A stretch of DNA of 64,000 nt from Escherichia coli (lineage in GTDB: Bacteria; Pseudomonadota; Gammaproteobacteria; Enterobacterales; Enterobacteriaceae). This document shows positions 45,001 through 60,000 of this stretch, piece after piece. Each line of letters starts with the position of its first letter. Positions within the stretch are counted from its first letter, which is position 1. The position numbers were made by a program. The stretch is from assembly GCF_013122565.1 (NCBI RefSeq), contig NZ_CP053258.1, one strand, 5' to 3'.

Positions 45001-48000
45001 CTTCAAACGGCACATTCAGGGTGCGACGGACAAAACTTGCCCCACCATCACAGGCCACCAGCCACTGGGCTTTGACTATTTCCCGCTGCCCTTCTGCCGT
45101 TTTCAGGTGCAAGGTCACTTCGTCATCTTGCTGACTGAAGACCTCCAGCTCGCGGGAAAACAAGCAGCGCACATTCGGAAAACGCGACACCCCTTCCAGC
45201 ATCACCGCATCGACCTGCGGCTGAATAAAGGCGTTACGGCGCGGCCAGCCAAATTCATCGGTCATTGGCTGAATATCAGCAAAACAGCGGCCCTTCGGGG
45301 TGAGAAAACGCATCGCGTGCCACGGCGTAGTATGCGGCAGAACATTATCGACCAGGCCGACCGACTGCATGGTGCGCAGCGCCTCGTCATCAATACCAAT
45401 CGCACGCGGGTAGTCGATCAACTTATCGAGTTTCTCCACCACCAGCACGTCAATGCCCATCTGGCCGAGATAGTTCGCCATCATCAGCCCGACCGGACCG
45501 GCACCAGCGATCGCCACCTGAACGCTATGGTTAACAGCAGGCTGGATGTCAGGGTGTTGTATTGCCATTTCAGTACCTCACGACTCGGACAAAATGCCGT
45601 TGCGCGCACAGTACAGCGCAACTTACTTTGTTAAAAACATGTAAATGATTTTTTATTGTGCGCTCAGTATAGGAAGGGTGTTTTCGGCTACAATCAAAAC
45701 ATGCCCGAATGTGCACCAGGTGCACAACGTTGTTTTAACTATAGAAATGTCAATTAATATGCAGAACAATGAGCAGACGGAATACAAAACCGTGCGCGGC
45801 TTAACCCGCGGTCTAATGTTATTAAATATGTTAAATAAACTTGACGGCGGTGCCAGCGTCGGGCTGCTGGCGGAACTCAGCGGCCTGCATCGCACCACTG
45901 TGCGGCGACTGCTGGAGACGCTGCAGGAAGAGGGATATGTCCGGCGTAGTCCCTCCGATGATAGTTTTCGTCTGACCATCAAAGTGCGGCAATTAAGCGA
46001 AGGATTTCGTGACGAACAGTGGATTTCTGCACTGGCGGCCCCACTGCTGGGCGATCTGTTACGCGAAGTGGTATGGCCGACAGATGTGTCCACGCTGGAT
46101 GTTGATGCAATGGTGGTACGCGAAACCACTCACCGTTTCAGCCGCTTATCCTTTCACCGGGCAATGGTCGGGCGACGTTTGCCGCTTCTGAAAACCGCCT
46201 CGGGCCTGACCTGGTTGGCCTTTTGCCCGGAACAAGAACGCAAGGAATTAATCGAGATGTTAGCCTCCCGCCCCGGTGATGACTATCAACTGGCACGAGA
46301 ACCGTTAAAGCTGGAAGCCATTCTGGCGCGCGCGCGCAAAGAGGGTTACGGACAGAACTACCGCGGCTGGGATCAGGAGGAGAAGATCGCCTCTATCGCC
46401 GTACCGCTGCGCAGTGAACAACGGGTGATTGGCTGTTTGAATCTGGTGTATATGGCGAGCGCAATGACCATCGAACAGGCAGCGGAAAAGCATCTTCCGG
46501 CACTACAACGGGTAGCAAAACAGATCGAAGAAGGGGTTGAATCGCAGGCTATTCTGGTGGCCGGACGGCGAAGCGGCGTGCATTTACGCTAGTTACGCCA
46601 ATGTGTAATTTGGCCCATTCTCATCGTTATTCGCCCATTTGCCCACATGCACAGTACGGGCTGCACGCTACGCTAATGACATCAATACTGTGATGTGGAG
46701 CAAATCATGAAAATTACGCAAATTCGTAATGCCACCCAAATTATCCAATACGCTGGCAAAACATTTCTTATCGACCCGTTACTCGCGCCTAAAGGAAGTT
46801 ATCCGGGTTTTGCCGGAACGGCACGCGCAGAAATCCGCAATCCAACGGTAGAATTACCGTGCGATTTAACAACGTTACTCAACGTTGACGCCCTAATCGT
46901 GACCCATTTGCATGAAGATCACTGGGACGAAACAGCCTCCCGCGTCGTTCCTAAAGATAAACTGATTTATGTGCAAAATGAGCAAGATGCTGAATCACTG
47001 AATAAACAAGGATTTACGCATCTTACCGTACTTACCGACGAGACTAAATTTGGCGATATTACTCTGCATAAAACGACAGGGCAGCACGGCTCCGATCGCA
47101 CCTATGCCGACCCGGCTATGGCGAAGCGTTTAGGCGCAGCCTGCGGCGTTGTTTTCCAGCACCCGACAGAGAAAACGCTCTATCTGGCTGGCGATACCCT
47201 CTGGCGTGACGACGTCGAGGCTACAATGCTAACTTTCCAACCAGAAGTGGTTGTGTTGAATGCCGGATTTGCGCATGTTCTGGGGCATGGCGCGATAATT
47301 ATGGGAGCAGAAGATATTCTCAAAACACATTTTACCCTGCCAGAAGCGCAAATTGTCGCGACACATATGGAGGCCGTAAACCACTGTTTGCTGACGCGTG
47401 ATGCGCTCAAGGAATACGCCAGAGATAATCAAATTATCGAATTTGTGAACGTACCAGAAGATGGTGAAACGTTGACATTCTAATTCGGAGATAAAGAGTG
47501 TTATGCGCCCGCTAACTGTTGCCATTATCGCCGTTGCCGGTTTTAGTCCTTTTCACCTTTCCGTACCGTTTATCGTATTTAGCGAAAAAATGGCGGAGAA
47601 AAAACACTTTCACGTAATTATCTGCGCTGAAAAGCCGGGAAACGTGGACTCTGCCGATGGGTTTTCCGTAACCGCCACCCATGACTATACCGCAGTCATC
47701 CAGGCGGATATTGTGATAATTCCTTACTGGGGAACAATTACACAAAAACCGCCACAAAAACTGCTGGAAGCCTTAACGACCGCACGGGATAACGGCGCAC
47801 AGATTGTCGGGCTTTGCCTGGGCACGTTTGTGCTCGGCTATGCAGGTTTACTGAAAAATAAGCGTGCCGCCACGCACTGGGAGTTCGAGCGTGAATTTCA
47901 GGCACGTTTTCCACAAACACATCTGGATATTAACGCGTTGTACGTAGACGATGACGGCATTATTACCTCTGCCGGTACTGCCGCGGCGCTGGATTGCTGT

Positions 48001-57000: not shown

Positions 57001-60000
57001 TACCCTGCGCAATCGCAATATTTCGCTGACGGCAGGCAATACTCTGCTGACGCAGATTGTCTATATGGGCATTAACGTTGTGCTGCCGCCGTATCTTTAT
57101 CATGTCTCCGGCCTGTCGCTGGCAGCATCCGCCGGGATGAGTATTATCTTTACGCTTACTGGTACTCTGGGGCAGATAATTTGGCCCTGGCTGTCCGACA
57201 GTTTTGGTCGTAAACGTACCCTGATTGTCTGCGGTCTGTGGATGAGTATCGGCATTGCACTGTTCTATTTCGCCACGAATATGCCGCGCCTTATCGCCAT
57301 TCAGCTATTTTTTGGACTGGTGGCAAACGCCGTGTGGCCTATCTATTACGCAATGGCCTCGGACTCCGCCGAAGAACGCGCCACCTCTACTGCAAACGGA
57401 ATTATCACCACGGCAATGTTTATTGGCGGTGGCATTTCGCCATTGCTCATGGGCTGGCTAATTCAGCTTGGTGGGGGTTGGGAAAACCCGGCGGGTTATA
57501 TCTACGCCTTCTTTACGATGGCGGGATGTGCGCTGCTGGGGATGCTGTTGCAGTTAATGACCAGTGATAAAACGCCGCGCAAAGCGCATTAATTCAGGAG
57601 AACGCATGAAGATTGTTATCGCGCTGGATCCTTTTAAGAGTCGGCTCCTCGCAGACGCTGCGGAGAATGTTATACGAACCTTTGTGAGCGGACGACGCAA
57701 AGAGAAACATAAGCGGATGACCTTATGATTATTACGACGGCGCTGGCTAATGAAATTGTCACCAGGGCGATGGCAATCATTCATCATAACGTGAACGTAA
57801 TTGACCATTATGGACAGATCATTGCCTCAGGTGAACGGCATCGTATCGGCGAGCAACATGAAATCGCCCGTGAGGTGATACGCACGGGTAAACGCATTTG
57901 TATTAACAACGCTGCTGAAGCCGCGCGTTTTAAGAATGTGCTTCCGGGTATTAATCATCCCATTATCTATGACGATCGCGTGGTGATGGTTGTGGGTATC
58001 AGCGGCGATCCCGCAGCGATCAGCCGCTATGCTGAACTGGCGGTGCTCACCGCCGAGCTGCTGGTCCGCCAGGCCGCCGAGATGCAAGAAACCAACTGGC
58101 GACAGCGCCTGCGCGATACCTTGTTTTGTCAGTATCTTGAGCAAGGTACCTCGCCCGCCGGGCAGGAATCACTCCATCGCCTGCTCGAAACTGGCTTCGC
58201 TTTTGATGCGCCGCTGGTACCAGTCGTCGTATCAGTGCAGGTTGAGCAGCACCAGCTAAGCGAAATTTTAAGTACGCTGCTGCGGGAGTTCTCCCGGTTG
58301 GCCGGGGTAAGAGACGTTATTTTGCTCGGCAGCAATGAGATTTTACTCCTCAATACGCTGAGCGAACCGCAGGAAACATTGCTGCGCAGCATTGAGTTTG
58401 TTCTTAGCAATCAGATCAGTCATTACCATATCGGGATAGGCGTACAGGCGGATAGCGCCCCGGATATTCGCGAGGCCATCAGATTCGCCCGTTCGGTGAT
58501 TGAAGTTGGGAGCAAAGTGCAGCCACAGCGGCAGATCTACTATTTTCGCGAAATGGCCATGCTCTGCCTGTTCCGGGTACTGGAAGACAGCTATATGGTG
58601 AATTTTTTTATCAATAATGTCCGCCAGTTGCTTGAACATGATTCTGGCGAAGTGCTGCTGGATACCCTGAGCAGCTTTATTGCCAATAACGCAGAGCTGG
58701 GTAAAACATCGCTGCTGTTGGGTATTCACCGCAATACGCTCACCTATCGTCTACAGCAGATAAAAAAGCATATCCAGCTCGATCCGATGGTCTTCACCGA
58801 CCTGACGCAACTGGCGGTGTCGGTACACTGCTATCGTCGGCAGAACCCGCGCCAGAGCGAATGGATCGATAGCTTAAGTTAAAACGCGATGGGGTCAGTT
58901 CATTATTTCAAAGAGCATAAGTACAGGAACAAATGTCGGATGCGCCACTGGGCACATCCGACAATCTTTTATTGTTCCATTGTCTCGCAAAACAAGCGTC
59001 GCATCATGCCTCTTTGACCCACAGCTGCGGAAAACGTGCTGGTGCAAAACGCAGGGTTATGATCATCAGCCCAACGACGCACAGCGCATGAAATACCCAG
59101 TCCATCAGGTAATTGCCGCTGATACTACGCAGCACGCCAGAAAACCACGGGGCAAGCCCGGCGATGATAAAACCGATCCCCTGCATAAACGCCACCAGCT
59201 TGCCAGCAATAGCAGGTTGCACAGAGTGATCGAGCGCCAGCAGCAAACAGAGCGGAAATGCGCCGCCCAGACCTAACCCACACACCATCACCCACAATAC
59301 CGGCAATTGCAGCGGCAACCAGATAAAGCCGCAGAACCCCACCAGTTGTAACACCAGCGCCAGCATTAACAGTTTGCGCCGATCCTGATGGCGAGCCATA
59401 GCAGGCATCAGCAAAGCTCCTGCGGCTTGCCCAAGCGTCATCAATGCCAGCAAGGAACCGCTGTACTGCGCGCTGGCACCAATCTCAATATAGAAAGCGG
59501 GTAACCAGGCAATCAGGCTGGCGTAACCGCCGTTAATCAGACCGAAGTAAAGGCCCAGCGTCCACGCGCGGGGAGTGAATACCACGCGAACCGGAGTGGT
59601 TGTGGTCTTGTGAGAAGAGGCGACCTCGCGGGCGCTTTGCCACCACCAGGCAAAGAGCGCAACAACGGCAGGCTGCGCCCACCAGGCGAGTGTTTGATAC
59701 CAGGTTTCGCTATGTTGAACTAACCAGGGCGTCAGGGCGGCACCAAGTCCACCGCCGCCCATCAGAGCCGCGGACCACAGCCCCATCACCAGTGGCGTGC
59801 GCTGCTGAAACCGCCGTTTAATCACCGAAGGCATCACCGCCTGAATGATGCCGATCCCCACCCCACCAAGCAGTGCGCTGCTAAGCAGCAGCGCACTTTG
59901 GGGGTAAAGCTCACGCATCAATGCACCGACGGCAATCAGTAACAAACTGATGGCGACGCTGCGACGTTCGCTGACATGCTGATGAAGCCAGCTTCCGGCC

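What the first reader, a model, noticed from the sequence alone, without database searches (positions are those of the whole stretch)
46593..59003. A 12.4-kb ten-gene block occupies the place of the lac operon between mhpR and cynX
In E. coli K-12 the genes between mhpR and cynX are lacI-lacZ-lacY-lacA. Here the flanking genes are present, co-oriented and near-identical in protein sequence to what I recall for K-12, but the interval holds ten unrelated genes, all on the + strand. They encode an MBL-fold hydrolase, a GlxA-type AraC regulator, an acyl-CoA synthetase, a YdiF-like CoA-transferase, an SDR, a thiolase, an MFS permease, an SMP-30 lactonase, a second MFS permease and a CdaR-type regulator. 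No lacI/Z/Y/A-like ORF exists anywhere in the window. The block is bounded by a stem-loop terminator on the cynX side, and the window contains no IS element or integrase. This is a replacement at a well-studied locus and the best candidate for an undescribed catabolic system.
Basis: partly seen in the sequence, partly recalled or inferred. Interest (0 to 1): 0.85.

Follow-up and report, generated by a model that had tools for sequence, protein, structure and literature searches.

The report
Deoxyribonate gene cluster replaces lac operon
In this divergent E. coli the lactose operon is replaced by an eight-gene, Klebsiella-type cluster already linked by mutant genetics to growth on the DNA-breakdown product 2-deoxyribonate, so the gene swap is real and rare but the pathway is not new.

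Summary
Ten intact + strand genes lie between mhpR and cynX. The window has no lac homologue, IS element or integrase.

The "ten-gene block" is really two things:
- Genes 1-2 (MBL hydrolase, GlxA/AraC regulator) are O-island 19 (z0443 and ovrA). This is native E. coli DNA that sits next to lacI in 435 of 5426 complete genomes.
- Only eight genes (48.5-58.9 kb) occupy the place of lacIZYA. Their left edge is 10 nt before the lacI start codon. Their right edge is 13 nt past the cynX stop.

The eight genes are acyl-CoA synthetase, CoA-transferase, SDR, thiolase, MFS, lactonase, MFS and a CdaR regulator. They match the Klebsiella cluster in order. Each protein is 94-97% identical to its K. michiganensis counterpart, and the DNA is 90.8% identical.

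Price et al. 2019 showed by RB-TnSeq that this cluster in K. michiganensis M5al is needed for growth on 2-deoxy-D-ribonate. Their proposed route runs through acyl-CoA intermediates to acetyl-CoA and glycerate.

The window copy has lost the glycerate kinase gene through an in-frame 1053-bp deletion.

No complete E. coli genome carries the block, and its donor is unsampled (dS 0.3-0.6 to the Klebsiella copies).

Verdict: a real, rare replacement of lac by a known kind of catabolic cluster. It is not an undescribed system.

The parts
45645..46592 (+). mhpR, the left E. coli flank
   Evidence: ORF. It lies within the 99.4% match to E. coli 33F4, where it is annotated mhpR.
46695..47483 (+). MBL-fold hydrolase, the z0443 gene of O-island 19. 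Native E. coli accessory DNA, not part of the replacement.
   Evidence: 98.9% aa identity to the E. coli 33F4 protein next to lacI. OI-19 is described in PMC8565820.
47503..48456 (+). ovrA, the GlxA/AraC-type regulator of O-island 19. Native, not part of the replacement.
   Evidence: 100% aa identity to RefSeq 'OI-19-encoded virulence regulator OvrA'. Full-length OI-19 occurs in 435 of 5426 genomes. K-12 keeps only the last 34 nt.
48457..48483 (+). Remnant of the lacI leader. E. coli homology ends 10 nt before the position of the lacI GTG start.
   Evidence: window TAGCGCGTGCAGGAAAGTCAATTCAGG against E. coli TAGCGCCCGGAAGAGAGTCAATTCAGG|GTGGTGAATGTG.
48484..48516 (.). Left junction DNA of unknown origin
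   Evidence: No match to E. coli, K. pneumoniae, K. michiganensis or any fetched locus.
48517..48706 (+). Upstream control region of the cluster, conserved with Klebsiella. It includes TTGTGCAATGTTACAA and a TGTGA-containing stretch.
   Evidence: Alignment to K. michiganensis L091, K. pneumoniae and partly to L094. Its function as a promoter or operator is inferred.
48707..50263 (+). Acyl-CoA synthetase, the proposed deoxyribonate-CoA ligase
   Evidence: 93.8% aa to K. michiganensis and 94.2% to K. pneumoniae. Counterpart of BWI76_RS23695. AMP-binding family.
50260..51852 (+). YdiF-like family I CoA-transferase, proposed to convert glyceryl-CoA to glycerate
   Evidence: 94.8% aa to K. michiganensis. 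PDB 2AHU YdiF at 1e-106. Counterpart of BWI76_RS23700.
51864..52598 (+). SDR, the proposed 3-hydroxyacyl-CoA (deoxyribonyl-CoA) dehydrogenase
   Evidence: 96.3% aa to K. michiganensis. FabG-like in NCBIfam. Counterpart of BWI76_RS23705.
52609..53799 (+). Thiolase, proposed to cleave 3-ketodeoxyribonyl-CoA. The mechanical ORF starts at 52573; the start matching the orthologues is 52609.
   Evidence: 95.5% aa to K. michiganensis over residues 11-408 of the ORF. The Klebsiella gene is 396 aa. ATG at 52609.
53807..53831 (.). GC-rich hairpin between the thiolase and the first MFS gene, conserved in K. pneumoniae
   Evidence: -22 kcal/mol, z = -2.0. Its role as an attenuator or RNA-stability element is inferred.
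53935..55272 (+). MFS transporter 1, the proposed main deoxyribonate importer
   Evidence: 96.6% aa to K. michiganensis. Counterpart of BWI76_RS23715, mean mutant fitness -4.0.
55286..56164 (+). SMP-30/gluconolactonase-family lactonase, the proposed 2-deoxyribonolactonase
   Evidence: 95.9% aa to K. michiganensis. 67-70% to Pseudomonas lactonases that sit in SDR-BKACE-lactonase-MFS clusters. Counterpart of BWI76_RS23720.
56255..57592 (+). MFS transporter 2
   Evidence: 95.3% aa to K. michiganensis. Counterpart of BWI76_RS23725, mean mutant fitness -1.4.
57606..57728 (+). Remnant of the glycerate kinase gene: a 40-codon ORF left by an in-frame deletion of 1053 bp
   Evidence: Window 57637 aligns to L002 15101 and window 57644 to L002 16161. 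The K. pneumoniae glycerate kinase CDS is 15070-16245.
57725..58882 (+). CdaR/SdaR-family transcriptional regulator of the cluster
   Evidence: 94.5% aa to K. michiganensis. CdaR family at 8e-46. Diacid_rec and HTH_30 domains in the orthologues.
58883..58990 (.). Right junction DNA of unknown origin. It contains a bidirectional terminator-like hairpin at 58934-58963.
   Evidence: No match to E. coli or Klebsiella loci. Hairpin.
59004..60185 (-). cynX, the right E. coli flank. E. coli homology resumes at 58991.
   Evidence: 98.4-98.5% identity.

Best explanation
Segment 48484-58990 is a horizontally acquired cassette for catabolism of 2-deoxy-D-ribonate (and its lactone) by an acyl-CoA route. 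It is of the type found in Klebsiella. In a divergent E. coli lineage it replaced lacI-lacZ-lacY-lacA without any mobile-element gene.

Proposed mechanism, transferred from the K. michiganensis model and not measured here:
1. The MFS transporters import deoxyribonate.
2. The SMP-30 lactonase opens 2-deoxyribono-1,4-lactone.
3. The acyl-CoA synthetase forms deoxyribonyl-CoA.
4. The SDR oxidises C3 to give 3-ketodeoxyribonyl-CoA.
5. The thiolase cleaves this to acetyl-CoA and D-glyceryl-CoA.
6. The YdiF-like CoA-transferase releases glycerate.
7. The CdaR-type regulator activates the genes.

The cluster's own glycerate kinase has been deleted. The last step, glycerate to phosphoglycerate, must therefore rely on the host's garK or glxK. 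This is an inference, because those genes lie outside the window.

The two upstream genes, z0443 and ovrA, are the resident island OI-19 and are unrelated to the pathway. The expected phenotype is Lac-negative and deoxyribonate-positive.
For: Anatomy:
- E. coli homology ends at 48483 and resumes at 58991. Klebsiella homology covers 48517-58882.

Orthology:
- The eight genes appear in the same order in K. pneumoniae and K. michiganensis.
- DNA identity is 89.2% and 90.8% respectively. Each protein is 93-97% identical.
- dN/dS is 0.05-0.09, so all eight genes have been kept under purifying selection.

Function:
- In K. michiganensis M5al, eight consecutive genes are specifically important for growth on deoxyribonate: CoA-synthetase, CoA-transferase, beta-hydroxyacyl-CoA dehydrogenase, thiolase, MFS, lactonase, MFS and glycerate kinase (BWI76_RS23695-23730).
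- They were not important on deoxynucleosides or under 92 other conditions (PMC6365646).

Independent context:
- The lactonase is 67-70% identical to Pseudomonas lactonases in GntR-SDR-BKACE-lactonase-MFS clusters. This is the other deoxyribonate pathway in the same paper.
- The synthetase-transferase-SDR-thiolase module travels with glycerate kinase, and often with a CdaR regulator, in Budvicia, Succinatimonas, Succinivibrio, Clostridia and Varibaculum.
- Synthetase-glycerate kinase fusion proteins exist (P0070-P0079).
- In Klebsiella the cluster lies next to deoC and sugar-kinase genes.

Rarity:
- The block is in 0 of 5426 complete E. coli genomes.
Against: - No enzyme of the acyl-CoA route has been assayed. 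The K. michiganensis evidence is mutant fitness only. GapMind still lists a missing step for deoxyribonate oxidation, which it describes as an unknown glyceryl-CoA hydrolase (PMC9007349).
- I compared the window with a K. michiganensis genome that is not shown to be strain M5al. Equivalence to the BWI76 genes rests on species, gene order and annotation.
- The window copy lacks glycerate kinase, so the pathway may be incomplete or unused here.
- dS of 0.3-0.6 to the Klebsiella copies leaves room for a shift in substrate.
- Expression in E. coli was not tested, and the promoter scan found no strong sigma-70 match upstream.
Confidence: 0.78

Rival explanations
1. The cluster degrades a different small hydroxy-acid or lactone through the same chemistry: CoA activation, 3-hydroxyacyl-CoA oxidation and thiolysis. 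Candidates are another deoxy-sugar acid or 3,4-dihydroxybutyrate-type compounds. Deoxyribonate would then be only a side substrate.
For: All the enzyme families are broad. The best NCBIfam matches are generic (long-chain CoA ligase, FabG, BktB) and mostly fall below the curated cut-offs. There is no biochemical assay of the route. The lactonase family is variously annotated as L-arabinonolactonase or sulfogluconolactonase.
Against: In K. michiganensis the cluster showed a phenotype on deoxyribonate and on none of 92 other conditions or the deoxynucleosides. The lactonase and MFS genes are shared with the independently supported Pseudomonas deoxyribonate cluster. The recurring link to glycerate kinase fits a product with a glyceryl moiety.
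Confidence: 0.12
2. The arrangement is an assembly artefact, a chimeric join of E. coli and Klebsiella reads. The true genome would still carry lac at this position.
For: Nothing positive. Read-level data cannot be examined with these tools. The exact proteins and both junction sequences are absent from the public indexes searched, so there is no independent confirmation from a second assembly.
Against: - Two separate joins would be needed, 10.5 kb apart. Both fall in intergenic DNA and preserve E. coli order and orientation on each side.
- No Klebsiella flanking gene (the VOC gene or the oxidoreductase) came along.
- The block is about 10% diverged from every sampled Klebsiella copy and has its own in-frame deletion. 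A contaminant would be expected to match a known species closely.
Confidence: 0.03
3. The cassette is a decaying, non-functional relic. After glycerate kinase was lost, the remaining genes are no longer used.
For: The glycerate kinase gene is deleted. No strong promoter match lies upstream.
Against: All eight remaining genes are full length, with no frameshift or stop. dN/dS is 0.05-0.09, although most of that divergence may predate the transfer. The deletion is in frame and keeps the overlapping start of the regulator gene. E. coli normally has two glycerate kinases of its own (established knowledge, not checked in this genome).
Confidence: 0.07

Closest known systems
Klebsiella michiganensis M5al deoxyribonate utilisation cluster BWI76_RS23695-23730 (Price et al. 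2019, mSystems, PMC6365646)
   Same: The first seven genes have the same content and order: CoA-synthetase, CoA-transferase, 3-hydroxyacyl-CoA dehydrogenase, thiolase, MFS, lactonase, MFS. Each protein is 94-97% identical to a K. michiganensis genome copy, and the CdaR regulator follows in both.
   Different: Glycerate kinase is deleted in the window. The host is E. coli, not Klebsiella. The cassette sits at the lac locus rather than beside the deoC and sugar-kinase genes. The DNA is about 9-11% diverged, so the donor is not a sampled Klebsiella.
Pseudomonas simiae WCS417 oxidative deoxyribose/deoxyribonate cluster (PS417_07240-07255 and adjacent MFS genes)
   Same: It shares the lactonase (67-70% identity to Pseudomonas homologues) and MFS transporter genes. 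Both yield acetyl-CoA and glyceryl-CoA, then glycerate.
   Different: [quoted passage not shown] It is regulated by a GntR protein. The window has no BKACE and uses CoA-bound intermediates, a thiolase and a CdaR regulator.
O-island 19 of E. coli O157:H7 (z0443 and ovrA)
   Different: In O157:H7 and 435 complete genomes, OI-19 is followed by lacI. Here it is followed by the deoxyribonate cassette.
E. coli YdiF acetate/acyl-CoA transferase (PDB 2AHU) and S. aureus FadX
   Same: The block's CoA-transferase is a single-chain family I CoA-transferase of this type (PDB E-value 1e-106; NCBIfam FadX 7.5e-115).
   Different: It scores well below the FadX equivalog cut-off (384 against 750 bits). Complete E. 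coli genomes match the block only over about 170 nt at roughly 71% identity, in a CoA-transferase gene elsewhere in the chromosome. The gene context is also different.

Membership tests
Klebsiella-type deoxyribonate catabolic cluster (acyl-CoA route) | Co-linear genes for CoA-synthetase, CoA-transferase, 3-hydroxyacyl-CoA dehydrogenase (SDR) and thiolase | tested here: met
   Window 48707-53799 has the same order as K. pneumoniae L002 and K. michiganensis L091, with 94-96% aa identity.
Klebsiella-type deoxyribonate catabolic cluster (acyl-CoA route) | An MFS - SMP-30 lactonase - MFS module, with the lactonase about 70% identical to the Pseudomonas deoxyribonolactonase | tested here: met
   Window 53935-57592. 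The lactonase is 67-70% identical to Pseudomonas homologues located in SDR-BKACE-lactonase-MFS clusters. It is 95.9% identical to the K. michiganensis protein.
Klebsiella-type deoxyribonate catabolic cluster (acyl-CoA route) | A glycerate kinase gene inside the cluster | tested here: not met
   Only a 123-nt remnant remains (57606-57728). 1053 bp were deleted in frame relative to K. pneumoniae. This is a secondary loss from a member, since both ends of the gene are still recognisable.
Klebsiella-type deoxyribonate catabolic cluster (acyl-CoA route) | Sequence orthology to the experimentally tested M5al genes BWI76_RS23695-23730 | tested here: inconclusive
   The M5al sequences were not obtainable with these tools. 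The comparison used another K. michiganensis genome (GCA_015721435.2) with identical gene order. Equivalence is inferred from species, order and annotation.
Klebsiella-type deoxyribonate catabolic cluster (acyl-CoA route) | Requirement for growth on 2-deoxy-D-ribonate | not testable with these tools
   Needs growth and mutant assays on the source strain.
O-island 19 (E. coli) | z0443 and ovrA located directly downstream of mhpR | tested here: met
   A 99.4% nt match runs continuously through mhpR, the MBL gene and ovrA. OvrA is 100% identical at protein level. The island is defined in PMC8565820.
lac operon | Presence of lacI, lacZ, lacY and lacA | tested here: not met
   tblastn with the four proteins gives no hit in the window. 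Only 27 nt of the lacI leader region persist.
Mobile genomic island (integrase- or IS-borne) | An integrase or transposase gene, a tRNA target, or flanking direct repeats | tested here: not met
   The window is colinear with IS-free E. coli segments. The junction segments repeat nowhere in the window. A different host (L094) does have an integrase fragment next to its copy.

The most novel reading that the evidence does not exclude
The mhpR/OI-19-cynX interval may be a cassette-exchange site where lac and the deoxyribonate cluster are alternative alleles. The alleles would move between Escherichia lineages by homologous recombination in the conserved flanks. Under this reading, the diverged window copy (dS 0.3-0.6 to Klebsiella, with its own junction DNA) has been resident in an unsampled Escherichia-like lineage for a long time. 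It would not be a recent import from Klebsiella, and it would bear on the old question of how the lac locus was gained and lost in the enterobacteria.
Probability: 0.12. Interest if true: 0.6.

Novelty: new member of a known kind. Interest (0 to 1): 0.35.

Why it matters
This is a clean natural case of one catabolic operon exchanged for another at the best-studied locus in bacterial genetics, with no mobile-element genes involved. The lineage would score Lac-negative in diagnostic tests. It would probably gain use of 2-deoxyribonate, an oxidation product of deoxyribose that is present in human urine (PMC6365646).

The missing glycerate kinase suggests the imported pathway was trimmed to rely on host enzymes. 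E. coli is easy to manipulate genetically, so this strain would be a convenient host for the first biochemical test of the proposed acyl-CoA route. The route currently rests on transposon fitness data alone.

The finding does not reveal a new pathway or mechanism.

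Tried and rejected
- **GTDB genome scan.** I scanned the species genomes with a synthetase alignment. The distant loci were still useful for context.
- **Exact-sequence look-ups.** The window's synthetase, lactonase and SDR are not on record. 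The source genome and close relatives therefore could not be identified.
- **Metagenome scans.** Scans for the left junction and for the glycerate-kinase deletion junction gave no match.
- **The 'K. grimontii' MAG contig L085.** I rejected it as a proxy for the K. oxytoca complex. It is 91-94% identical to K. pneumoniae, flanks included, and its synthetase gene is truncated.
- **GC content and GC3 as evidence of foreign origin.** The block genes are 52-60% GC with GC3 of 60-67%. The native mhpA, mhpB and cynX are just as GC-rich, so composition does not discriminate here.
- **Shared operator motif.** Only two 9-mers recur among the block's intergenic regions. That is not enough to call an operator.
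- **BamHI site in the glycerate-kinase remnant.** I considered it a possible sign of engineering. It differs from the Klebsiella sequence by ordinary substitutions and no scar or marker is present, so I rejected this.
- **Rfam scan of 45000-60500.** No RNA family was found.
- **Literature search for mhpR, cynX and lacI together.** No report of this replacement turned up.

Full report
**1. Observation**

- a weak MBL-type metal-dependent hydrolase match;
- a GlxA/FtrA-like AraC regulator;
- an adenylate-forming CoA ligase;
- a FadX/YdiF-type CoA-transferase, confirmed by PDB 2AHU at 1e-106;
- a FabG-like SDR and a thiolase;
- two MFS permeases and a CdaR-family regulator.

The 292-aa protein has no NCBIfam hit, but it belongs to the SMP-30/gluconolactonase family.

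tblastn with LacI, LacZ, LacY and LacA from a lac+ E. coli finds nothing in the 64-kb window. The rest of the window is colinear with E. coli, from mak through phoA, sbmA, hemB, tauABCD, frmRAB and mhpT-A. It contains no IS element or integrase.

A strong hairpin at 58934-58963 lies between the last block gene and cynX. Its z-score is -5.7 on the + strand and -6.8 on the - strand.

**2. The block is two things, not one**

Megablast of 45600-60200 against 5426 complete E. coli genomes matched 5390 of them, but never over more than 28% of the query. In strain 33F4 the matched parts are mhpR, an MBL-fold hydrolase and 'OI-19-encoded virulence regulator OvrA', followed by lacI-lacZ-lacY-lacA and then cynX.

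Pairwise blastn puts continuous 99.4% E. coli homology from 45000 to 48483, resuming at 58991. The window's MBL protein is 98.9% identical to the 33F4 protein, and its OvrA is 100% identical.

O-island 19 is described as an 1834-bp island holding z0443 and ovrA (PMC8565820). It is full length in 435 of 5426 complete genomes. K-12 keeps only the last 34 nt of ovrA, which form part of the classical lacI promoter region.

Genes 1 and 2 are therefore resident E. coli DNA that normally coexists with lac. Only eight genes replace lacIZYA.

**3. Junctions**

On the left, the window keeps 27 nt after the ovrA stop that correspond to the lacI leader. The window reads TAGCGCGTGCAGGAAAGTCAATTCAGG. E. coli reads TAGCGCCCGGAAGAGAGTCAATTCAGG, followed by GTGGTGAATGTG. 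Homology stops 10 nt before the lacI GTG start.

On the right, E. coli homology resumes 13 nt beyond the cynX stop. The REP-containing lacA-cynX spacer is gone.

Two segments match neither E. coli nor any Klebsiella-type locus fetched, and they repeat nowhere in the window:
- 48484-48516 on the left;
- 58883-58990 on the right, which carries the terminator hairpin.

They are most simply the donor's own flanks. Nearly all E. coli carry lac here, and this genome is 97.5-98.2% identical to E. coli elsewhere. I therefore infer that lac was ancestral and was replaced. The 27-nt remnant fits this inference but does not prove it.

**4. What the eight genes are**

A K. pneumoniae chromosome (filed in PLSDB) carries the same genes in the same order at 89.2% DNA identity. 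It also has a glycerate kinase gene between the second MFS gene and the regulator.

A K. michiganensis chromosome (GCA_015721435.2) has the same nine-gene cluster. The window is 90.8% identical to it in DNA. Per-protein identities are 93.8, 94.8, 96.3, 95.5, 96.6, 95.9, 95.3 and 94.5%.

Price et al. 2019 (PMC6365646) reported that in K. michiganensis M5al the consecutive genes BWI76_RS23695-23730 are specifically important for growth on 2-deoxy-D-ribonate. The genes are CoA-synthetase, CoA-transferase, beta-hydroxyacyl-CoA dehydrogenase, thiolase, MFS, lactonase, MFS and glycerate kinase. They were not important on deoxynucleosides or under 92 other conditions.

The route they proposed is:
- deoxyribonate to deoxyribonyl-CoA;
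- then to 3-ketodeoxyribonyl-CoA;
- then to acetyl-CoA plus glyceryl-CoA;
- then to glycerate, and finally to 2-phosphoglycerate.

The window's seven structural genes correspond one-to-one, in order, to the first seven of these.

**5. Independent support for the assignment**

- The window lactonase is 67-70% identical to many Pseudomonas homologues. One such Pseudomonas locus reads GntR - SDR - BKACE - lactonase - MFS. This is the architecture of the other deoxyribonate pathway in the same paper. The paper reports 70% identity between the K. michiganensis and P. simiae lactonases.
- The synthetase-transferase-SDR-thiolase module recurs with glycerate kinase, and often with a CdaR regulator, in Budvicia, Succinatimonas/Succinivibrio, several Clostridia and Varibaculum.
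- About ten clusters of 890-aa proteins fuse the synthetase to a glycerate kinase domain.
- In Klebsiella the cluster lies beside deoC, DeoR-type regulators and sugar kinases.

**6. State of the window copy**

All eight genes are full length. Divergence figures come:

| Comparison | dS | dN/dS |
|---|---|---|
| Window vs K. michiganensis | 0.31-0.41 | 0.05-0.09 |
| Window vs K. pneumoniae | 0.38-0.62 | 0.04-0.08 |
| K. michiganensis vs K. pneumoniae | 0.20-0.31 | 0.03-0.08 |

The window copy is thus an outgroup to both Klebsiella copies, and its donor is unsampled.

The glycerate kinase gene has been removed by a deletion that nets 1053 bp (351 codons). A 40-codon in-frame remnant is left at 57606-57728, and the overlapping start of the regulator gene is intact. 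E. coli normally has its own glycerate kinases, garK and glxK. This rests on established knowledge and was not checked in this genome. If they are present, the pathway could still reach glycolysis.

**7. Rarity and origin**

- The block is in none of 5426 complete E. coli genomes, by megablast or by blastn on its first 3.9 kb.
- The exact proteins are not in the gene-position index.
- Neither junction sequence occurs in JGI metagenomes.
- No part of the flanking window exceeds about 98.2% identity to any complete E. coli outside the mhpA-ovrA stretch. The host is therefore a poorly sampled, divergent E. coli lineage, and I could not name it.
- Base composition does not mark the block as foreign, because mhpA, mhpB and cynX are as GC-rich as the block.

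An assembly chimera is unlikely. It would need two intergenic joins that preserve E. coli synteny and bring no Klebsiella flanking gene. It would also need a Klebsiella-like sequence unlike any sampled one.

**8. Verdict**

The replacement of lac is real and rare. The inserted genes belong to a known, genetically characterised kind of deoxyribonate cluster, here missing its kinase. They are not an undescribed system.

- Confidence that the block belongs to this kind of cluster: about 0.9.
- Confidence in the full functional statement: 0.78, because the pathway has never been tested biochemically.
- Interest: modest, 0.35. The points of interest are the locus, the clean cassette swap and the possible host-dependent trimming, not new biochemistry.

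Noticed in passing
window 48423-48483: The classical lacI promoter region of K-12 is partly the 3' end of ovrA. K-12 and most genomes without OI-19 keep exactly the last 34 nt of ovrA. In the window, the 27 nt after the ovrA stop carry a cluster of mismatches (GTGCAGGAA against CCGGAAGAG), although the upstream DNA is 99.4% identical to E. coli.
   Followed up: partly
window 57606-57728: The deletion of the glycerate kinase gene is exactly in frame (351 codons net). It leaves a 40-codon ORF whose stop overlaps the regulator's start, as in the intact gene. I cannot tell whether the deletion happened in the donor or in E. coli.
   Followed up: partly
L090 (K. pneumoniae plasmid pJNQH373-1, NZ_CP091979.1, 125842-154689): A 279-kb IncFIB/IncHI1B plasmid record carries the whole chromosomal deoC-to-deoxyribonate region. 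ISKpn1 is inserted between the thiolase and the first MFS gene. This is either a possible vehicle for transfer or a chromosome-plasmid hybrid or assembly issue.
   Followed up: no
L094 8012-9518 (ENA metagenome contig, ERZ21883152): A more distant copy of the nine-gene cluster (83% nt identity) sits directly downstream of an integrase fragment and truncated ABC-transporter genes. This suggests the cluster has moved as a cassette in other hosts too.
   Followed up: no
P0070-P0079; loci L007-L009 and L031: Proteins of about 890 aa fuse the acyl-CoA synthetase to a glycerate kinase domain (PF02595). In Succinatimonas and Succinivibrio loci, glycerate kinase immediately follows the synthetase. This is a Rosetta-stone type link between the first and last steps of the proposed pathway.
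   Followed up: partly
window 53807-53831: A GC-rich hairpin (GGCCCGAAG...CTTCGGGCC) between the thiolase and the first MFS gene is conserved nearly base for base in K. pneumoniae. It may split the cluster into two transcripts or stabilise the mRNA.
   Followed up: partly
window 48590-48660: Upstream of the synthetase, TTGTGCAATGTTACAA and a TGTGATCAATTCGGCA stretch are conserved in K. pneumoniae and K. michiganensis, and partly in the 83%-identical L094 copy. They are candidate regulator or CRP sites.
   Followed up: no
window about 26800-34600: Between tauA and frmR lies an accessory segment with a response regulator, a MASE1 histidine kinase, a uhpC-like MFS sensor and a three-gene ABC transporter including fbpC. 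Only 365 of 5426 complete genomes cover at least 80% of 20000-44000, so the segment is variably present.
   Followed up: no
window 44100-48483 compared with the rest: The mhpA-mhpR-OI-19 stretch is 99.4% identical to E. coli 33F4. The rest of the window reaches at most about 98.2% to any complete genome. This could be a recombination tract next to the replaced locus.
   Followed up: no
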